Below are positions 2,345 to 53,264 of a stretch of 64,000 nucleotides of DNA, one piece after another (the first letter of the stretch is position 1; each line of letters opens with the position of its first letter). The DNA is from Escherichia phage AV111: sequence record OR352941.1; one strand, 5' to 3'. The notes under the pieces are model-generated. The model was not told the origin of the DNA. It saw nothing but the letters and a program-made list of their open reading frames with translations, and made no database searches. The position numbers and the translations under genes were made by a program.

Positions 2345-4327
2345 ATGGCACTTCTCTCTCCGGGCGTTGAGCTCAAAGAAACTACCGTACAGAGTACTGT
2401 AGTTAATAACTCCACTGGTACTGCTGCCCTGGCTGGAAAATTCCAATGGGGACCGGCATTCCAGATTAAACAAATCACTGATGAAGTTGCATTAGTTGAT
2501 ATGTTTGGTACTCCTAATACGGATACAGCAGATTATTTCATGTCTGCTATGAACTTCCTTCAATATGGTAACGACCTTCGTGTTGTACGCGCAGTCGATC
2601 GTGATACTGCTAAGAACTCATCTCCTGTAGCAGGTAATATTGAATTCACAATCTCTGCCACTGGTAGTAACTATGCGGTTGGTGATAAAATTATCGTTAA
2701 GTATTTGACCGAAACTGTTGAAGCAGATGGTTATGTCACTTCAGTTGATGTTGATGGTAAAATTCTTAACATTTATATCCCAACTGGTAAAATTATTGCT
2801 AAAGCGAAAGAAATCGGCGAATATCCTGAATTAGGTTCTAACTGGACCGCCGAAGTTGCCAGTTCTTCTTCTGGACTCTCTGGCGTTATTACAATTGGTT
2901 CTATCGTAACCGATTCTGGTATTCTGTTAACTGAAGTTGAAACTTCTGAAGAAGCTATTACTTCTCTAACTTTCCAAGAATCTATTAAAAAATATGGCGT
3001 CCCGGGCGTAGTTGCTCTTTATCCTGGTGAACTTGGCGACCAGCTCGAAATTGAAATCGTATCTAAAGCAGAATATGACAAAGGTGCTTCGGCCCAGTTA
3101 AAAATTTATCCTGACGGTGGCACTCGTGCATCTACTGCTAAAGCAATCTTTGGGTATGGTCCACAGACTGATGACCAATATGCAATTATCGTTCGTCGCA
3201 ACGACGCGGTAGTCCAGAGCGTAGTTCTTTCTACTAAACGTGGTGAACGCGATATTTATGGTAGCAATATCTTCATTGATGATTTCTTTGCTAAAGGCGC
3301 AAGCAATTATATTTTCGCTACGGCACAAGGTTGGCCAAAAGGTTTCTCTGGTGTAATCAAACTGAATGGTGGCTTATCATCTAATGAAACGGTTGAAGCC
3401 GGTGATTTAATGGAAGCTTGGGATTTGTTTGCTGACCGTGAATCGGTTAATGCACAGTTGTTTATTGCTGGTTCTTGTGCTGGTGAATCTTTAGAAGTTG
3501 CTTCTACAGTTCAGAAACATGTTGTAGCAATTGGTGATTCTCGTCAAGATTGCTTGGTTCTTTGCTCACCGCCACGTGCAACTATAGTCGGTATTCCTGT
3601 TAATCGTGCAGTTGATAATCTGGTTGATTGGCGTACAGCGTCAGGAACTTACACTGATAATAACTTTAATATAAGTTCTACTTATGCTGCTATTGATGGT
3701 AACTATAAATATCAATATGACAAATATAACGATGTGAATCGTTGGGTTCCATTAGCTGCTGATATCGCCGGTCTTTGTGCTCGAACAGACAATATTTCTC
3801 AGCCTTGGATGTCTCCAGCCGGTTATAACCGTGGACAAATTCTTAACGTTATTAAGCTTGCAATTGAAACTCGTCAACCACAGCGTGATCGTTTGTATCA
3901 GGAAGCTATTAACCCTGTTACTGGTACCGGTGGTGATGGGTATGTTCTGTACGGTGATAAAACTGCCACTTCTGTTCCTTCACCATTTGACCGTATTAAC
4001 GTTCGTCGTTTGTTCAATATGGTTAAAACGAACATTGGTTCAGCATCCAAATATCGCCTGTTTGAATTGAACAACGCATTTACCCGTTCTTCTTTCCGTA
4101 CAGAGACTTCTCAATATCTACAGGGTATTAAAGCTCTCGGTGGTGTATATAACTTTAAAGTTGTTTGTGATACTACCAATAACACCCCAGCAGTTATCGA
4201 CCGTAATGAATTTGTAGCTACTTTCTACTTACAACCTGCCCGCTCGATAAATTATATTACGTTGAACTTTGTAGCAACAGCAACTGGTGCCGATTTCGAC
4301 GAACTGATTGGTGCTGTAGGTGGTTAA
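2345..4327 (+). CDS. 18: Tail sheath protein gp18
   Basis: 660 aa ORF in T4 position after gene 17, preceded by late promoter TATAAATA at 2310-2317; length matches T4 gp18 (659 aa). Confidence 0.9.
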   Translation: MALLSPGVELKETTVQSTVVNNSTGTAALAGKFQWGPAFQIKQITDEVALVDMFGTPNTDTADYFMSAMNFLQYGNDLRVVRAVDRDTAKNSSPVAGNIEFTISATGSNYAVGDKIIVKYLTETVEADGYVTSVDVDGKILNIYIPTGKIIAKAKEIGEYPELGSNWTAEVASSSSGLSGVITIGSIVTDSGILLTEVETSEEAITSLTFQESIKKYGVPGVVALYPGELGDQLEIEIVSKAEYDKGASAQLKIYPDGGTRASTAKAIFGYGPQTDDQYAIIVRRNDAVVQSVVLSTKRGERDIYGSNIFIDDFFAKGASNYIFATAQGWPKGFSGVIKLNGGLSSNETVEAGDLMEAWDLFADRESVNAQLFIAGSCAGESLEVASTVQKHVVAIGDSRQDCLVLCSPPRATIVGIPVNRAVDNLVDWRTASGTYTDNNFNISSTYAAIDGNYKYQYDKYNDVNRWVPLAADIAGLCARTDNISQPWMSPAGYNRGQILNVIKLAIETRQPQRDRLYQEAINPVTGTGGDGYVLYGDKTATSVPSPFDRINVRRLFNMVKTNIGSASKYRLFELNNAFTRSSFRTETSQYLQGIKALGGVYNFKVVCDTTNNTPAVIDRNEFVATFYLQPARSINYITLNFVATATGADFDELIGAVGG

Positions 4328-4439: not shown

Positions 4440-4931
4440 ATGTTTGTAGATGACGTAACTCGTGCCTTCGAATCAGGTGATTTCGCTCGCCCTAACCTGT
4501 TCGAAGTAGAAATCTCTTATCTTGGGCAAAACTTTAGCTTCCAGTGTCGTGCTACGGCTCTTCCTGCTGCGATTGTTGAAAAGGTTCCTGTTTCTTATAT
4601 GAACCGTAAAATTAACGTGGCAGGTGATCGTACATTCGATGATTGGACTATTACAGTAATGAACGATGATGCTCATAGCATTCGTCAGAAATTTGTTGAT
4701 TGGCAAGGTATTGCAGCAGGACAAGGTAATGAAATTACCGGTGGTAAACCTGCTGAATATAAAAAGTCTGCTATCGTTCGTCAATTTGCCCGTGATGCTA
4801 AAACGGTCACTAAAGAAGTTGAAATTGTCGGCTTGTGGCCTACTAACGTTGGCGAAGTATCTCTTGACTGGGACAGCAATAACGAGATTGAAACGTTCGA
4901 AGTAACTCTTGCTCTTGATTGGTGGGAATAA
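4440..4931 (+). CDS. 19: Tail tube protein gp19
   Basis: 163 aa, same length as T4 gp19; synteny; late promoter at 4360-4367. Confidence 0.9.
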   Translation: MFVDDVTRAFESGDFARPNLFEVEISYLGQNFSFQCRATALPAAIVEKVPVSYMNRKINVAGDRTFDDWTITVMNDDAHSIRQKFVDWQGIAAGQGNEITGGKPAEYKKSAIVRQFARDAKTVTKEVEIVGLWPTNVGEVSLDWDSNNEIETFEVTLALDWWE

Positions 4932-5015: not shown

Positions 5016-6587
5016 ATGAAATTTAATATCTTAAGTTTGTTTGCTCCATGGGCAAAAATGGACGAACGTGATTACAAAGACCAAGAAAAAGAAAATTTAG
5101 AATCTATCACCACACCAAAATTAGACGACGGCGCTAAAGAATACGAAGTATCTGAAAATGAAGCACAGCAAACATATAATGCTATGTTTCAGAGAATGTT
5201 CGGTAGTCAAGAACCAGGGCTCAAATCAACCCGTGAATTAATCGATACGTATCGAAATTTGATGACGAACTATGAAGCGGATAATGCAGTCTCTGAAATA
5301 GTTTCTGATGCTATCGTATATGAAGATGATACAGAAGTCGTTTCTATAAATTTAGACAACACAAAATTTAGTCCAAATATAAAATCAATGATGTTGGATG
5401 AATTTAACGAAGTGTTGAATCATTTATCTTTCCAACGTAAAGGTTCAGACCATTTTAGGCGTTGGTATGTAGATTCTCGAATTTTCTTCCATAAAATTAT
5501 TGACCCTAAACGCCCTAAAGAAGGTATTAAAGAGCTTCGTCGTTTAGACCCACGTCAAGTTCAATATGTCCGTGAAGTTATTACAACCACTGAAGCCGGT
5601 GTTAAAATAGTCAAGGGTTATAAAGAATATTTCATTTATGACACATCACACGAATCTTATGCTTGTGATGGCCGCATATATGAAGCTGGCACAAAAATAA
5701 AAATCCCTAAAGCCGCGATTGTTTATGCCCATTCTGGTTTAGTTGATTGTTGTGGTAAAAATATCATCGGTTATTTGCATCGGGCTATTAAGCCAGCGAA
5801 CCAATTAAAACTTCTTGAAGATGCCGTTGTAATTTATCGTATTACTCGTGCTCCCGATCGTCGTGTATGGTACGTTGATACAGGTAATATGCCTTCAAGA
5901 AAAGCAGCAGAACATATGCAACATGTTATGAATACGATGAAAAACCGTATTGCATATGATGCTACTACAGGCAAGATTAAAAACCAGCAGCATATTATGT
6001 CGATGACCGAAGATTATTGGTTACAACGACGTGATGGTAAAGCAGTAACAGAAGTTGATACATTACCGGGTGCAGATAATACCGGAAATATGGAAGATGT
6101 ACGTTGGTTCCGTAATGCGCTTTATATGGCTTTACGTATTCCTATTACCCGTATTCCAAGCGACCAAGGTGGTATACAGTTTGATGCTGGTACTTCTATT
6201 ACACGAGATGAATTGTCATTTGGTAAATTTATTCGTGAGCTGCAACATAAATTTGAAGAGATATTCCTAGACCCGCTTAAAACTAATTTAATTCTTAAAG
6301 GAATTATTACAGAAGATGAGTGGAATGATGAAATAAATAATATTAAGATAAAATTTCATCGGGATAGTTATTTCTCGGAATTAAAGGATGCTGAGATTCT
6401 GGAGCGTCGTATTAATATGCTTCAGATGGCCGAACCATTTATTGGTAAATATATTTCTCACAGAACAGCTATGAAAGATATTCTTCAGATGTCTGACGAG
6501 GAAATTGAACAAGAGGCTAAGCAAATTGAAGAAGAGTCGAAAGAGGCTCGTTTCCAAGACCCCGACCAAGAACAAGAGGATTTTTAA
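5016..6587 (+). CDS. 20: Portal vertex protein gp20
   Basis: 523 aa (T4 gp20 524 aa); synteny; late promoter TATAAATA at 4980-4987. Confidence 0.9.
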
Positions 6588-8731: not shown

Positions 8732-10300
8732 ATGACTACTATCAAAACTAAAGCTCAGCTCGTAGACAAATGGAAAGAACTGCTGGAAGGTGAAGGCCTG
8801 CCGGAAATCGCTAATAGCAAGCAGGCTATTATCGCTAAAATCTTCGAAAACCAGGAAAAAGATTTCGAAGTATCCCCTGAATATAAAGACGAGAAAATCG
8901 CTCAGGCATTTGGTTCTTTCTTGACCGAAGCTGAAATTGGTGGTGACCATGGTTATAATGCTCAGAACATCGCAGCAGGTCAAACCTCTGGTGCAGTAAC
9001 CCAAATTGGGCCGGCAGTTATGGGTATGGTTCGTCGTGCTATTCCTAATCTGATCGCTTTTGATATTTGTGGTGTTCAGCCTATGAACAGCCCGACCGGT
9101 CAGGTATTTGCTCTCCGTGCAGTATATGGTAAAGACCCTATCGCTGCTGGCGCTAAAGAAGCTTTCCATCCGATGTATGCCCCAGACGCGATGTTCTCTG
9201 GTCAGGGTGCTGCTAAGAAATTCCCAGCTCTGGCTGCTAGCACACAAACCACTGTAGGTGATATCTATACTCACTTCTTCCAGGAAACTGGTACTGTATA
9301 TCTGCAAGCTTCTGTTCAAGTAACAATCGATGCTGGTGCAACTGATGCAGCTAAATTAGATGCAGAAGTTAAGAAACAAATGGAAGCTGGTGCACTGGTA
9401 GAAATCGCTGAAGGTATGGCTACTTCTATCGCTGAACTCCAGGAAGGTTTCAACGGTTCTACCGATAACCCATGGAATGAAATGGGCTTCCGTATCGATA
9501 AACAAGTTATCGAAGCTAAATCTCGCCAGCTGAAAGCTGCTTACTCTATCGAATTAGCACAAGACCTCCGTGCAGTACACGGTATGGATGCTGATGCTGA
9601 ATTGAGCGGTATTCTGGCTACAGAAATTATGCTAGAAATCAACCGTGAAGTTGTTGATTGGATTAACTACTCTGCACAGGTTGGTAAATCTGGTATGACC
9701 CTGACTCCGGGTTCTAAAGCTGGTGTATTTGACTTCCAGGACCCGATTGATATCCGTGGTGCTCGTTGGGCCGGTGAAAGCTTTAAATCTCTGTTGTTCC
9801 AGATTGATAAAGAAGCAGTTGAAATTGCTCGTCAAACCGGTCGTGGTGAAGGTAACTTCATTATCGCTTCCCGTAACGTAGTTAACGTACTGGCTTCAGT
9901 TGATACTGGTATTTCTTACGCTGCACAGGGTCTGGCTTCTGGTTTTAATACCGACACTACTAAGTCTGTATTTGCCGGTGTACTTGGTGGTAAATACCGC
10001 GTATACATCGACCAGTATGCTAAACAGGATTACTTCACCGTTGGTTACAAAGGCGCTAACGAAATGGATGCAGGTATTTACTATGCTCCTTACGTTGCAC
10101 TTACCCCACTGCGTGGTTCCGATCCTAAGAACTTCCAGCCGGTAATGGGCTTTAAAACTCGTTACGGTATCGGTGTTAACCCGTTTGCTGAAAGTTCCCT
10201 GCAGGCTCCAGGTGCTCGCATCCAGTCCGGTATGCCGTCTATCCTGAACAGCCTTGGTAAGAACGCTTACTTTAGACGTGTGTATGTCAAAGGCATCTAA
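8732..10300 (+). CDS. 23: Major capsid protein gp23
   Basis: 522 aa (T4 521 aa); paralogous to downstream gp24; followed by hairpin terminator at 10325-10342. Confidence 0.95.
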   Translation: MTTIKTKAQLVDKWKELLEGEGLPEIANSKQAIIAKIFENQEKDFEVSPEYKDEKIAQAFGSFLTEAEIGGDHGYNAQNIAAGQTSGAVTQIGPAVMGMVRRAIPNLIAFDICGVQPMNSPTGQVFALRAVYGKDPIAAGAKEAFHPMYAPDAMFSGQGAAKKFPALAASTQTTVGDIYTHFFQETGTVYLQASVQVTIDAGATDAAKLDAEVKKQMEAGALVEIAEGMATSIAELQEGFNGSTDNPWNEMGFRIDKQVIEAKSRQLKAAYSIELAQDLRAVHGMDADAELSGILATEIMLEINREVVDWINYSAQVGKSGMTLTPGSKAGVFDFQDPIDIRGARWAGESFKSLLFQIDKEAVEIARQTGRGEGNFIIASRNVVNVLASVDTGISYAAQGLASGFNTDTTKSVFAGVLGGKYRVYIDQYAKQDYFTVGYKGANEMDAGIYYAPYVALTPLRGSDPKNFQPVMGFKTRYGIGVNPFAESSLQAPGARIQSGMPSILNSLGKNAYFRRVYVKGI

Positions 10301-10324
10301 TCTTAATTGATTAAATCTTATTTT

Positions 10325-10342
10325 GGGAGACTTCGGTCTCCC
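10325..10342 (+). terminator. Stem-loop gggagaCUUCGgtctccc followed by T-run; terminator after gene 23
   Basis: Perfect 7-bp GC-rich stem with UUCG-type loop, then atttttgg on plus strand. Confidence 0.7.
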
Positions 10343-10352
10343 ATTTTTGGTT

Positions 10353-10622
10353 TTATTTCTGTGCAATTTCGATGTAAGTTTTCAAAATATTTTGCCAATT
10401 AGGCATACCTTCTTGGACATATGCTGGAGAACCGTCTTTGTTTTTGAATGATGCAAGTTTATCAGTAGCCCAATAGCCTTTAGCTCGAGCTTCAGAATCA
10501 ACTTTCATCCATACTTTGTTGAAGGCATTACCATTAACTTTTGCACCATATTTTTCTACTAACTTAACTGCTTCAGCTTCCAGAACTTTTAAAGTATCTC
10601 TTAAGAAACGTGCTTTAGTCAT
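10353..10622 (-). CDS. Hypothetical 89-aa protein, antisense to the late capsid operon
   Basis: ORF MTKARFLRDTLKVLEAEAVK...; T4-early-type promoter directly upstream at 10653-10682; no family recognised. Confidence 0.6.
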   Translation of the reverse strand: MTKARFLRDTLKVLEAEAVKLVEKYGAKVNGNAFNKVWMKVDSEARAKGYWATDKLASFKNKDGSPAYVQEGMPNWQNILKTYIEIAQK

Positions 10623-10652
10623 TTTGTTTACTCCTCTGTAGTTGATAAGTTT

Positions 10653-10682
10653 ATAGTATCACGTACCAAATACGTTGTAAAC
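10653..10682 (-). promoter_or_regulatory. T4-early-type sigma70 promoter (GTTTAC -35, TACTAT -10) for the 89-aa ORF
   Basis: Minus-sense reads GTTTAC-N17/18-gTGATACTAT; same architecture recurs upstream of many minus-strand early genes in this window. Confidence 0.6.
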
Positions 10683-10688
10683 AATCTT

Positions 10689-10696
10689 TATAAATA
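10689..10696 (+). promoter_or_regulatory. T4 late promoter TATAAATA upstream of gene 24
   Basis: Exact TATAAATA 28 nt before the gene 24 start codon. Confidence 0.75.
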
Positions 10697-10723: not shown

Positions 10724-12007
10724 ATGAGTAAAATCCAAAAATTATTGCGTGAATCTACAACGTCTACTAGCAACTCAATTGGTCGCCCAAATCTCGTTGC
10801 TTTGACTCGCGCTACGACTAAATTAATATATTCTGACATTGTAGCAACACAAAGAACTAATCAACCTGTTGCTGCTTTTTATGGTATCAAATATCTTAAC
10901 CCAGATAACGAATTCACATTTAAAACTGGTGCTACTTATGCAGGCGAAGTTGGATATGTAGACCGAGAAAAAATTACCGAACTCACAGAAGAATCAAAAG
11001 TCACACTAAATAAAGGTGATTTTTTCAAATATAATAATATCGTCTATAAGGTGTTAGAAGATACACCGTTTGCAGATATTCAGGAAAGTGATCTAGAATT
11101 AGCTCTTCAGATTGCGGTCGTTCATTTAAAGGTACGGTTATTTTCGGATGCAGCGGTAACAAGCAAATTTGAAAGCTCTGGTAGCGAAATTTCTGATGCA
11201 AGATTCCAGATTAATAAATGGCAAACTTCAGTCAAATCTCGTAAACTTAAAACCGGCCTCACGGTTGAATTAGCGCAAGATTTAGAAGCGAATGGATTTG
11301 ATGCCCCTAACTTCTTAGAAGATTTGCTTGCTACTGAAATGGCTGATGAAATTAATAAAGATATTCTTCAGTCTTTAATTACTGTATCAAAACGTTATAA
11401 AGTTACTGGAATTACTGACACCGGATTTATTGACTTGAGCTATGCGTCTGCTCCAGAAGCAGGTCGTTCATTATATCGAATGGTGTGTGAAATGGTATCA
11501 CACATTCAAAAAGAGTCAACTTATACTGCAACGTTTTGCGTAGCTTCAGCTCGTGCAGCTGCTATTCTTGCTGCTTCTGGTTGGTTAAAACATAAGCCGG
11601 AAGATGATAAGTATCTTTCACAAAATGCTTATGGATTCTTGGCAAATGGATTACCTCTTTACTGCGATACCAACAATCCGTTAGATTATGTTATTGTGGG
11701 TGTTGTAGAAAATATCGGCGAAAAAGAGATTGTAGGGTCTATCTTTTATGCTCCATACACTGAAGGAGTAAATTTAGATGACCCGGAACATGTTGGTGCA
11801 TTTAAAGTTGTAGTTGATCCAGAAAGCTTGCAACCGTCTATCGGATTATTGGTTAGATATGCTTTATCAGCAAATCCTTACACAGTAGCAAAAGACGAAA
11901 AAGAAGCGAGAATAATTGATGGCGGGGACATGGATAAAATGGCGGGACGTTCAGACTTGTCTGTTTTATTAGGTGTTAAATTGCCTAAAATTATTATAGA
12001 TGAATAA
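10724..12007 (+). CDS. 24: Capsid vertex protein gp24
   Basis: 427 aa (same as T4 gp24), gp23 paralogue. Confidence 0.92.
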   Translation: MSKIQKLLRESTTSTSNSIGRPNLVALTRATTKLIYSDIVATQRTNQPVAAFYGIKYLNPDNEFTFKTGATYAGEVGYVDREKITELTEESKVTLNKGDFFKYNNIVYKVLEDTPFADIQESDLELALQIAVVHLKVRLFSDAAVTSKFESSGSEISDARFQINKWQTSVKSRKLKTGLTVELAQDLEANGFDAPNFLEDLLATEMADEINKDILQSLITVSKRYKVTGITDTGFIDLSYASAPEAGRSLYRMVCEMVSHIQKESTYTATFCVASARAAAILAASGWLKHKPEDDKYLSQNAYGFLANGLPLYCDTNNPLDYVIVGVVENIGEKEIVGSIFYAPYTEGVNLDDPEHVGAFKVVVDPESLQPSIGLLVRYALSANPYTVAKDEKEARIIDGGDMDKMAGRSDLSVLLGVKLPKIIIDE

Positions 12008-12039: not shown

Positions 12040-13039
12040 TTATGATACTAATTCAATCCATGCAGGACGCAGAACATCTTGCACCATTCGGACTAATTCT
12101 TTCTTAACAAGATTCGGATTATCAGATGATGTTAATACAATACCTTCACGAGAAGTTTCTTCCAGAATATCTTGAACAGTCAATCCCATCACTTTGCCAA
12201 AATCTTTTGGCGTTACAGTCCCAATCTTAGAAATAACATTATTAACACGGTTTAATGTAACATAACAAGCTAGGACATCAAGCAAGTTTTTGTCAATTTC
12301 GGTTAATGGAACCTGAGTTTTTAATAGGCTTATCAGACTTTTTCTTTTCACTGAATTTAGAGTTCTTACACTTAATAGCTACACGAGTACCGTTTGGCAG
12401 CCATTTAGGGAAACAAGGCTTCAGAACATAACCTTCTGCCGTATTATCGCCAATAACATTAGCATCAAATACACAATTATTTGCTTCTACAAGGTCTTCT
12501 GACGCAGTAGCATTATAAGCGGCTAAAACGGAATCAAGGTCATTTGGAATCGTGATAAGAGCATCAAATGTGCCACGTCCAAGCACTGGTGCCATTTTAA
12601 AACCGAATTCATTACAGAAATCTTGCATTTCGTAATCGGTCAAATACGTATTATCACCACTTTCTGTATTGATAAGGATATCGAACACATAAAAATCTTT
12701 TTCACCGTAGTCAACACCTTTCTGGATTCCACCACCAGCGAATTCACCAAAGACCTGATATGATACAGCTCGAGAACTACCCATTACTTCTTGAACGTTT
12801 TTAATAGCCTTATCATACTTCTTGAGTACAATTTCATAACCATAAAAATCTTCTGCTGGAAGAATAGGGCCTGTGCGCTTGGCGCATGTGACGTTGTCAC
12901 GTTCAATTATTAACGAGAAGTTAGTCCCATGGATTTTCTCACGTGCTACCCAAACACCAGTAGTCAAACCATTAGTGTAGAGTTTTTCAATAAACTTAGA
13001 GTTGTAGTGGTTTTCAAGACTGCTGTATTTCTTAAACAT
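12040..13039 (-). pseudogene. rnlB: RNA ligase 2 (rnlB) interrupted by a +1 frameshift; two ORFs of 248 aa (12293-13039) and 103 aa (12040-12351)
   Basis: N-part [16 protein letters not shown]...[10 protein letters not shown] (ligase KxHG motif) and C-part ...LACYVTLNRVNNVISKIG...RPAWIELVS each match remembered T4 Rnl2 (334 aa); the frames meet at an A5 run (T5 on plus strand, 12318-12322). Confidence 0.8.
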
Positions 13040-41437: not shown

Positions 41438-41483
41438 TCAGTTAGTTTTTTTAAATTGTACCACAATCCTTGTGGTATGTAAA

Positions 41484-53223: not shown

Positions 53224-53264
53224 ATAGTAACACACTCATTTGAAAGCGTAAACTGGTATAAATA
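53224..53264. promoter_or_regulatory. Back-to-back promoters: early-type for rnh (minus) and late TATAAATA for gene 34 (plus)
   Basis: Minus-sense GTTTAC-N18-TACTAT (53224-53253) and plus-strand TATAAATA at 53257-53264. Confidence 0.6.

What the first reader, a model, noticed from the sequence alone, without database searches (positions are those of the whole stretch)
10321..10696. Antisense early-expressed 89-aa ORF wedged between the major capsid gene 23 and vertex gene 24
Inside an otherwise unidirectional late structural operon, a minus-strand ORF (10353-10622) has its own T4-early-type promoter (GTTTAC-N18-TACTAT, 10653-10682) and ends at the hairpin that also terminates gene 23. T4 carries the homing endonuclease segD at this junction; here a small, unrecognised, lysine-rich protein with no transmembrane segment or cysteine motif sits there instead. 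Small early genes at hypervariable junctions in T-even phages are often host-takeover or anti-defence factors. Its transcript would be antisense to late-gene read-through.
Basis: partly seen in the sequence, partly recalled or inferred. Interest (0 to 1): 0.55.

Follow-up and report, generated by a model that had tools for sequence, protein, structure and literature searches.

The report
Small early phage gene, function unknown
The 89-codon reverse-strand ORF between the capsid genes of this RB69-like T-even phage is a real, conserved, probably early-expressed accessory gene. It is already annotated as a hypothetical protein in over 200 phage genomes, and its function is still unknown.

Summary
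ORF 10353-10622 (-) encodes a basic 89-aa soluble protein with no cysteines. It has a strong Shine-Dalgarno sequence and a T4-early-type promoter (GTTTAC-N18-TACTAT with TG). It abuts the gene 23 terminator hairpin.

The window is a Mosigvirus. The protein is PHROG 6003, of unknown function. It is 95-100% identical in about 120 Mosigvirus records. Homologues at 31-38% identity sit in the same slot and orientation in Dhakavirus, Gaprivervirus and metagenomic T4-likes. It is under purifying selection.

The promoter motif occurs 8 times in the window, always on the minus strand, against about 1 expected. Two of those sites precede rnlA and rnh. The RB69 equivalent was already predicted as early promoter Pe:109605 in 2006.

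The 23-24 junction is an exchangeable slot. It is empty in some T-evens, holds segD-type endonucleases in T4 and MHG19, and holds this family elsewhere. The promoter-like element and hairpin are kept in all seven cargo-bearing junctions aligned.

Related genes sit among small-gene arrays and at module junctions of unrelated phages. None was found in a scan of representative bacterial genomes.

A confident AlphaFold model (pLDDT 94) has no structural relative. No function can be assigned. An early binder of a host or competitor molecule is the best guess.

This is an ordinary uncharacterised accessory gene of modest interest.

The parts
8732..10300 (+). Gene 23, major capsid protein (522 aa), the upstream late gene
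   Evidence: ORF list. 96% aa identity to T4 gp23. Annotated as major capsid protein in matching Mosigvirus records.
10324..10343 (+). GC-rich hairpin (UGGGAGAC-UUCG-GUCUCCCA) followed by a T-run at 10344-10353. It is the intrinsic terminator of gene 23. The minus-strand ORF transcript also meets it, but without a U-tract on that strand.
   Evidence: Terminator scan found it on the + strand only. Folding gave -14.4 kcal/mol (+) and -13.5 (-), z-scores -4.1 and -6.0. Annotated as a terminator in G2285. A gene 23 terminator was predicted in all six T4-like genomes compared in PMC1524935.
10353..10622 (-). 89-aa ORF, PHROG 6003, a basic soluble protein of unknown function (10.1 kDa, pI 9.6)
   Evidence: dN/dS is 0.06-0.17 against the closer alleles. 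AlphaFold2 model has pLDDT 94.3 with helices at 3-25, 31-48 and 76-88 and a beta-hairpin at 52-70.
10631..10636 (-). Shine-Dalgarno sequence GAGGAG, 8 nt upstream of the ATG
   Evidence: Read directly from the sequence and the Shine-Dalgarno context listing.
10646..10682 (-). Predicted T4-type early (sigma-70) promoter. The -35 GTTTAC is at 10677-10682, TG at 10660-10661 and the -10 TACTAT at 10653-10658. The inferred transcription start is near 10646.
   Evidence: Conserved upstream of the cargo gene in seven T4-like loci (alignment A5). Corresponds to RB69 'Pe:109605' (109555-109605, minus strand) of Nolan 2006. The start site is inferred, not measured.
10689..10696 (+). Late promoter TATAAATA of gene 24, back to back with the early -35 element
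   Evidence: Read from the sequence. Invariant in alignment A5. RB69 late promoter 'Pl:109573' was predicted at the equivalent place.
10724..12007 (+). Gene 24, capsid vertex protein (427 aa), the downstream late gene
   Evidence: ORF list. 94.8% aa identity to T4 gp24. Annotation in matching records.

Best explanation
This is a genuine, non-essential accessory gene of an RB69-like T-even phage (Mosigvirus). It occupies an exchangeable cargo slot between capsid genes 23 and 24.

The slot has two boundary signals that are kept wherever cargo is present. One is a sigma-70 early promoter placed back to back with the gene 24 late promoter. The other is the gene 23 terminator hairpin. Different lineages hold different cargo between them: nothing, a SegD-type GIY-YIG homing endonuclease, or this 89-aa gene family.

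Host RNA polymerase would transcribe the gene in the first minutes of infection, from a start near 10646. The short-leader mRNA has a strong Shine-Dalgarno sequence. It encodes a soluble, basic 10-kDa protein made of a three-helix bundle with a beta-hairpin.

The following steps are inferred, not shown. With no catalytic motif, cysteines or membrane segment, the protein most likely acts as a stoichiometric binder. Given its conserved positive charge, the target would be a nucleic acid or an acidic host or competitor protein. The likely role is host takeover, counter-defence or inter-phage competition, not capsid assembly.

Confidence that it is a real early accessory gene is about 0.9. Confidence in the binder mechanism is about 0.35. 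The overall figure of 0.55 blends the two.
For: **Real gene**
- Full-length match to PHROG 6003, E 2e-45.
- 239 phage records carry it, and 237 of them cover at least 80% of the protein in one piece.
- It sits in the same slot and orientation in Gaprivervirus VR20, Dhakavirus JS10 and metagenomic T4-likes, at 31-70% aa identity.
- pS exceeds pN in every pair. dN/dS is 0.06 against G2285 and 0.17 against P0006.

**Early expression**
- GTTTAC-N18-TAnnnT occurs 8 times, all on the minus strand, against 1.08 expected.
- The same motif, at the same 27-33 nt distance from a start codon, precedes rnlA and rnh. These are early genes in T4 (established knowledge).
- The -35 and -10 elements are conserved at fixed spacing in 7 loci, and the TG in 6 of them.
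- RB69 early promoter Pe:109605 was predicted at the equivalent place.
- No MotA box (TGCTT) is visible in the upstream region (sequence).

**Exchangeable slot**
- Empty in Bas41, Roth20 and Melville.
- SegD-type gene on the minus strand in T4 and MHG19.
- Endonuclease on the plus strand in Olmo.
- Small ORFs in a Krischvirus.
- ORF allele classes do not track flank divergence. L013 has flanks as diverged as VR20, but its ORF is 61% identical against 35% for VR20.

**Accessory nature**
- Family members lie among co-oriented small-gene arrays of Acinetobacter phage ABPH49 and related large contigs, after a primase-helicase gene in a contig of about 50 kb, and after a gpJ-like tail gene in a siphovirus-like contig.
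- No copy of the non-T4 subgroup was found in one genome per species of 185,579 bacterial and archaeal species.
- The gene is broken in RB69, mogra and 310Ecol104PP.

**Protein properties**
- pI is 8.0-9.9 in all 23 members and at least 9.17 in 22 of them. Net charge is +1 to +9. Cysteines number 0 or 1 per member.
- The fold prediction is confident, pLDDT 94.3.
Against: - There is no experimental transcript, protein or phenotype.
- Positive charge alone does not prove nucleic-acid binding.
- Edgell et al. 2010 found no segD-specific promoter at the T4 equivalent of this site. The T4 version starts ATTTAC, so the promoter-like element may not be active in every lineage.
- Loss of the gene in RB69 and its absence from T4 show it is not needed on laboratory hosts.
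Confidence: 0.55

Rival explanations
1. The protein serves the phage's own programme. It would be a small basic nucleic-acid-binding factor that tunes phage transcription, translation or DNA metabolism early in infection, not one that targets host defences.
For: Basic pI is conserved across the family. Expression is predicted to be early. One homologue lies next to a primase-helicase gene and another lies near helicase and exonuclease-like genes, on the opposite strand.
Against: The gene is absent from T4 and many other T-evens that run the same programme. It is broken in RB69. It diverges much faster than its flanks. No known DNA- or RNA-binding fold was detected.
Confidence: 0.2
2. The functional unit is the early antisense transcript, not the protein. 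Transcription from the conserved early promoter would run antisense across the 23-24 junction and into gene 23. It would damp premature or read-through sense expression, or occlude the gene 24 late promoter, and the ORF would be incidental cargo.
For: The promoter-like element is kept whatever the cargo, whether segD or this ORF, and a -35 remnant persists in the empty Melville slot. In this phage the hairpin has no U-tract on the minus strand, so transcripts could continue into antisense gene 23. The early -35 and upstream region overlaps the late promoter. Anti-late RNA is known in T4 (established knowledge).
Against: The ORF is under clear purifying selection at the protein level and has a strong Shine-Dalgarno sequence. 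In VR20 the hairpin is followed by TTTTTATTT on the ORF strand, so read-through is not a conserved feature. Bas41 has neither promoter nor cargo. The same protein family occurs in other phages with no capsid genes nearby.
Confidence: 0.1
3. It is an effectively neutral passenger. The gene would be carried along by recombination or homing-endonuclease traffic at this junction, have no current benefit to the phage, and be slowly decaying.
For: Disrupted copies exist in RB69, mogra and 310Ecol104PP. The slot is empty in several lineages. It shares the slot with a selfish endonuclease gene.
Against: 237 of 239 records cover at least 80% of the protein in one piece. dN/dS is well below 1. Seven residues are invariant across all 23 family members. 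The promoter and Shine-Dalgarno sequence are retained.
Confidence: 0.1
4. It is a capsid-related factor, for example an assembly chaperone or a minor head component, as its position between genes 23 and 24 might suggest.
For: Position only. There is also a very weak PHROG match to 'internal virion protein' (phrog_8765, E 0.09).
Against: It lies on the opposite strand with an early, not late, promoter. It is absent from T4 and broken in RB69, both of which build normal heads. Homologues in other phages mostly lie outside structural modules.
Confidence: 0.05

Closest known systems
PHROG 6003 / RB69ORF188c+189c / VR7ORF190c / JS10 EpJS10_0170 (hypothetical proteins of Mosigvirus, Gaprivervirus and Dhakavirus)
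   Same: This is the same gene family. The match is full length (E 2e-45). The copies sit at the same 23-24 position in the same antisense orientation, next to the same kind of hairpin, and VR20 carries the same promoter-like element.
   Different: Nothing essential differs. The window's copy is intact, whereas the RB69 reference copy is split by two indels. No member of the family has an assigned function.
T4 segD (free-standing GIY-YIG homing endonuclease between genes 23 and 24)
   Same: It occupies the same slot on the same strand. It lies between the same promoter-like element (A/GTTTACA-N17-TAnnAT with TG, next to the gene 24 late promoter) and the same type of hairpin.
   Different: The protein is unrelated. 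The 89-aa protein has no GIY-YIG or other nuclease domain. SegD is 223 aa. The literature reports no identifiable segD promoter in T4.
Small early accessory ('moron' or host-takeover) genes of T-even phages driven by early promoters upstream of novel ORFs (Nolan et al. 2006)
   Same: It is a short ORF with its own early promoter, a short leader, patchy distribution, fast divergence and dispensability.
   Different: It sits alone and antisense inside the late head-gene block, not in the long early-gene arrays. Its target and activity are unknown.

Membership tests
PHROG 6003 (phage protein family of unknown function) | Significant full-length match to the family profile | tested here: met
   E 2.1e-45, 153.6 bits, residues 1-89 against profile positions 1-90 of 90.
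T4-type early (sigma-70) promoter | -35 GTTTAC, spacer of 17-18 nt, -10 TAnnnT, with an extended -10 TG | tested here: met
   GTTTAC-N18-TACTAT with TG at 10653-10682 on the minus strand. The motif family is enriched 8-fold and confined to the minus strand.
T4-type early (sigma-70) promoter | Placed upstream of an ORF in the right orientation, as at known early genes | tested here: met
   31 nt from the -10 element to the ATG. The geometry is the same at the sites preceding rnlA and rnh. The RB69 equivalent was predicted as Pe:109605.
T4-type early (sigma-70) promoter | Transcript 5' end detected in the first minutes of infection, independent of phage protein synthesis | not testable with these tools
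   No transcriptome data for a Mosigvirus was found.
Intrinsic terminator acting on the ORF's own (minus) strand | Stable GC-rich hairpin immediately followed by a U-tract on that strand | tested here: not met
   The hairpin is present (-13.5 kcal/mol) but is followed by AAAAUAAGAUUU. The scan reports a terminator on the + strand only. VR20 does have a T-run on the ORF strand.
SegD / GIY-YIG homing endonuclease | GIY-YIG catalytic domain | tested here: not met
   No Pfam match to any nuclease domain above threshold for the window protein or the 22 relatives. At 89 aa the protein is too short.
DUF4859 (PF16151) | Score at or above the Pfam gathering threshold of 22.6 bits | tested here: not met
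   17.9 bits, E 0.0029. Only 2 of 23 family members match. Treated as noise.
Known anti-phage defence proteins (PADLOC) | Match to a PADLOC defence-system model | tested here: not met
   0 families at E up to 1.
Known anti-defence proteins (Ocr, Arn, IPI, Acb, Tad and similar) | Sequence or fold similarity to a characterised inhibitor, or demonstrated inhibition of a defence system | tested here: inconclusive
   There is no dedicated anti-defence library among the tools. PDB sequence, PDB fold and BFVD searches found no characterised relative. The functional assay cannot be run here.

The most novel reading that the evidence does not exclude
The family is a previously uncharacterised class of early phage effector with a fold that has no solved relative. 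It would inhibit a host defence or takeover target, or act in competition between co-infecting T-even phages. Alternative cargoes (this protein or a SegD endonuclease) would be swapped in a fixed early-promoter and hairpin cassette inside the head-gene block.
Probability: 0.3. Interest if true: 0.55.

Novelty: already known. Interest (0 to 1): 0.3.

Why it matters
As it stands the finding matters little. The ORF is identical to deposited 'hypothetical proteins', and its early promoter was predicted in RB69 in 2006.

Two points have some value.

First, the 23-24 junction behaves as a fixed early-promoter and hairpin cassette whose cargo is exchanged among T-even lineages. The cargo can be absent, a SegD-type endonuclease, or one of two allele classes of this protein. 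This suggests that T4 segD, reported to lack a promoter, sits behind a degenerate copy of the same early promoter.

Second, the protein is a compact, confidently modelled, basic fold with no solved relative. It is spread among unrelated virulent-type phages. That makes it a reasonable, cheap candidate for anti-defence or host-takeover screens in BASEL Mosigvirus isolates.

Tried and rejected
**Searches that gave no functional lead**
- Pfam, NCBIfam and PADLOC scans of the protein and of 23 relatives. Only sub-threshold, inconsistent hits appeared: DUF4859, Ca_bind_SSO6904 and DUF5380.
- A profile search of PDB sequences gave only E > 0.2 noise.
- An exhaustive HMMER search of 1.84 billion representative proteins gave 8 hits. 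All were family members, apart from a spurious repeat match to a cytochrome-b5-like protein (P0013).
- Two further profile searches of 5.8 billion proteins found about 25 clusters and no annotated relative.
- Rfam found nothing in the whole window.
- A genome-contig scan for prophage copies of the non-T4 subgroup found none.

**Literature that led nowhere**
- Searches for PHROG 6003, Mosigvirus transcriptomes, JS98 g23/g24 and accessory-gene screens found nothing on this gene.

**Ideas rejected**
- The first shallow-alignment AlphaFold model (pLDDT 63) was discarded in favour of the 23-sequence model.
- A capsid-related role, because of the early promoter and the non-structural contexts elsewhere.
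- A DNA mimic, because the protein is basic, not acidic.
- A membrane or superinfection-exclusion protein, because it has no hydrophobic segment.

Full report
**What is there**

The window is a Mosigvirus, an RB69-like T-even phage. The 601 bases around the finding are 98-99% identical to many Escherichia and Shigella Mosigvirus genomes. Its gp23 and gp24 are 96% and 95% identical to those of T4.

On the minus strand, an 89-codon ATG ORF runs from 10622 down to 10353. It has a GAGGAG Shine-Dalgarno sequence 8 nt upstream of the start codon.

Thirty-one nt upstream of the ATG lies TACTAT (10653-10658). It is preceded by TG (10660-10661) and, after an 18-nt spacer, by GTTTAC (10677-10682). Six nt beyond that, on the plus strand, is the gene 24 late promoter TATAAATA (10689-10696).

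Ten nt past the ORF's stop codon is the hairpin at 10324-10343. Its folding energy is -14.4 kcal/mol on the + strand and -13.5 on the - strand. Its T-run is on the plus strand only, so it is the gene 23 terminator and not a canonical terminator for the ORF.

The protein has 13 lysines, pI 9.6, no cysteine and no hydrophobic segment.

**Is it more than chance?**

A generic sigma-70 scan of this kilobase is not above background: 2 sites found against 2.6 expected. The specific motif GTTTAC-N18-TAnnnT behaves differently:

- It occurs eight times in the 64-kb window, every time on the minus strand. The shuffled expectation is 1.08, and 0 of 100 shuffles reached 8.
- Several sites share GTGATACTAT.
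- Five of the eight sites sit 27-33 nt upstream of a minus-strand start codon with a Shine-Dalgarno sequence.
- Two of these genes are RNA ligase 1 (rnlA) and RNase H (rnh). Both are early genes in T4 (established knowledge).

Nolan et al. 2006 built an early-promoter HMM for RB69. Their supplement lists 'Pe:109605' (109555-109605, minus strand, score 29.9), which maps exactly onto window 10646-10696. It also lists a late promoter 'Pl:109573' for gene 24. So the early-promoter call is well founded, and it is not new. It remains a prediction, because I found no transcript data for a Mosigvirus.

**Is it a gene?**

Yes.

- It matches PHROG 6003 over its full length, E 2e-45.
- tblastn finds it in 239 phage records, and 237 of them cover at least 80% of the protein in one piece. 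About 120 records are 80-100% identical (117 of them at 95% or above) and 119 are below 60% identical.
- The distant copies lie in the same place and orientation, between genes 23 and 24. This holds in Gaprivervirus VR20, Dhakavirus JS10 and three metagenomic T4-like contigs.
- Synonymous differences exceed non-synonymous ones in every comparison. dN/dS is 0.06 against G2285 and 0.17 against P0006, and dS is saturated in several others.
- Seven residues are invariant across 23 diverse members: M1, K3, F6, G31, N32, N35 and Q70.

The gene is dispensable at least in some isolates. In the RB69 reference, two indels split it into ORF188c and ORF189c. Truncated copies exist in phages mogra and 310Ecol104PP.

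**The slot**

The 23-24 junction varies among T4 relatives:

| Content of the junction | Phages |
|---|---|
| Empty (about 80-95 bp intergenic) | Tequatrovirus Bas41, Klebsiella phage Roth20, Gelderlandvirus Melville |
| SegD-type GIY-YIG gene, minus strand | T4, Yersinia phage MHG19 |
| Homing endonuclease, plus strand | Klebsiella phage Olmo |
| Several tiny ORFs | a Krischvirus |
| The 89-aa family | Mosigvirus, Dhakavirus, Gaprivervirus, metagenomic T4-likes |

I aligned the region from the gene 24 start to the cargo start in seven genomes (alignment A5):

- The late promoter is invariant.
- A -35-like GTTTACA is present in five of the seven. T4 has ATTTACA and L013 has GTGTACA.
- The -10 TAnnAT keeps fixed spacing in all seven, and TG is present in six.
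- This holds whether the cargo is the 89-aa gene or segD.

The hairpin at the other end is likewise kept. Melville's empty slot retains TTGTTTTACA next to TATAAATA.

The 89-aa alleles do not track flank divergence. L013 and VR20 have equally diverged gp23 (83-84% identical to the window) and gp24 (about 70%). Their ORFs are 61% and 35% identical to the window's.

I read this as a fixed promoter and hairpin cassette with cargo exchange by recombination. One side consequence concerns T4 segD. Edgell et al. 2010 state that no segD-specific promoter could be found. segD in fact sits behind a slightly degenerate copy of this element.

**Distribution outside T4-likes**

The family is small. It comprises about 25 clusters at 90% identity among 5.8 billion proteins. 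An exhaustive HMMER scan of 1.84 billion representatives gave 8 hits, one of them spurious.

It is not confined to T4-likes:

- Acinetobacter phage ABPH49 (Vequintavirinae) and similar large contigs carry it within long arrays of co-oriented small ORFs.
- A contig of about 50 kb carries it just downstream of a primase-helicase gene.
- A siphovirus-like contig carries it after the gpJ-like tail gene, at the junction with the replication genes.
- A scan of one genome per species of 185,579 bacterial and archaeal species found no copy of the non-T4 subgroup.

These are typical positions for accessory genes, not for structural ones.

**What the protein is**

No Pfam, NCBIfam or PADLOC family matched above threshold. 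The DUF4859 hit, at 17.9 bits, is below the 22.6-bit cutoff and is seen in only 2 of 23 members. A profile search of PDB sequences gave nothing.

With a 23-sequence alignment, AlphaFold2 gives a confident model (mean pLDDT 94.3, pTM 0.80). It has two long antiparallel helices (3-25 and 31-48), a beta-hairpin (52-60 and 66-70) and a C-terminal helix (76-88).

Fold searches gave no specific relative:

- Foldseek against the PDB returned nothing better than E 0.39.
- BFVD returned only a family member of 88 aa at 31% identity.
- AFDB50 could not be searched.

The one family-wide property is charge. pI is 8.0-9.9, and at least 9.17 in 22 of 23 members. Net charge is +1 to +9, and each member has 0 or 1 cysteine.

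**How it most likely works**

*Shown or strongly supported:* this is a protein-coding accessory gene with an early-type promoter in an exchangeable slot.

*Inferred:*

- Host RNA polymerase transcribes it immediately after infection, from a start near 10646.
- The protein has no catalytic signature, so it probably acts by binding.
- Its conserved positive charge points to a nucleic acid or an acidic protein as the partner.
- Its patchy distribution, rapid divergence, dispensability and association with accessory regions point to host takeover, counter-defence or inter-phage competition, not to core phage functions.

I put about 0.9 on 'real early accessory gene' and about 0.35 on the binder and host-directed mechanism.

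**Rival explanations**

| Rival | Confidence | Main counter-evidence |
|---|---|---|
| Phage-directed nucleic-acid-binding regulator | 0.2 | Absent from T4 and other T-evens that run the same programme; broken in RB69 |
| Role for the antisense transcript, not the protein | 0.1 | Protein-level selection; VR20's T-run after the hairpin; empty slots without a promoter |
| Neutral passenger | 0.1 | 237 of 239 copies cover at least 80% of the protein in one piece, and dN/dS is well below 1 |
| Capsid-related role | 0.05 | Early promoter, opposite strand, non-structural contexts in other phages |

The antisense rival draws on two observations. The promoter is kept regardless of cargo, and in this phage there is no U-tract on the minus strand.

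**Comparison with the known, and verdict**

The feature is a member of PHROG 6003. It is the intact form of RB69ORF188c/189c. Its promoter corresponds to the published RB69 prediction Pe:109605. It is not related to SegD, whose slot it shares.

It belongs to the familiar class of small early genes with their own promoters that Nolan et al. described for novel ORFs in T4-like genomes. Gene and promoter are therefore already known as annotations, and the function is unknown.

The anatomy and the variable junction are right. The anti-defence or host-takeover idea is neither supported nor excluded.

Interest is modest, at 0.3. The most novel reading not excluded is a new fold and family of early effector in a swappable cassette. 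I give it a probability of about 0.3 and an interest of about 0.55 if true.

Noticed in passing
window 12040-13039 (-), insertion near 12322: The rnlB (RNA ligase 2) gene carries one extra A in an A-run compared with G2285 and RB69. This splits it into a 248-aa ORF and a 103-aa ORF. It is either a homopolymer sequencing error or a real pseudogene.
   Followed up: partly
L004 (T4) 4734-4790 (-); L019 (MHG19) 3019-3075 (-): T4 segD and the MHG19 segD-like gene are preceded by the same promoter-like element as the 89-aa gene (A/GTTTACA-N17-TAnnAT with TG, next to the gene 24 late promoter). The literature states that no segD-specific promoter could be identified in T4 (PMC2988022).
   Followed up: partly
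L018 (Salmonella phage Melville) 2340-2375: The 23-24 slot is empty but retains TTGTTTTACA next to TATAAATA. This looks like a leftover -35 element after loss of the cargo. Bas41's empty slot has no such remnant.
   Followed up: no
window minus strand: 13499, 25799, 36741, 38867, 40272, 41455, 53224 (each + 29 nt): There are seven further GTTTAC-N18-TAnnnT early-promoter-like sites, all on the minus strand. The site at 41455 precedes rnlA and the site at 53224 precedes rnh. The 53224 site also abuts a TATTTATA, which may be another divergent early/late promoter pair.
   Followed up: partly
L005 (RB69 NC_004928) 6292-6532: The RB69 reference copy of the gene is split into ORF188c and ORF189c by a 1-nt deletion, a 1-nt insertion and a cluster of substitutions. 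Phages mogra and 310Ecol104PP also carry truncated copies.
   Followed up: yes
L002 (VR20), L034 (JS10), L010, L013: Dhakavirus, Gaprivervirus and two metagenomic T4-likes carry two tandem gp24 (vertex protein) paralogues next to the slot. The window, T4 and RB69 have one.
   Followed up: no
L013 versus L002, relative to the window: ORF allele classes do not follow flank divergence. L013 and VR20 have equally diverged gp23 and gp24, yet their ORFs are 61% and 35% identical to the window's. This suggests cassette exchange within the slot.
   Followed up: partly
P0006, P0032, P0013 (database proteins): JGI names the family member P0006 'NADPH-dependent curcumin reductase CurA', which is an evident misannotation. 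P0032 is a chimeric 701-bp contig product. P0013, a protein with cytochrome-b5-like repeats, matched the profile only through a short 'NGxNGQPAY'-like motif.
   Followed up: no
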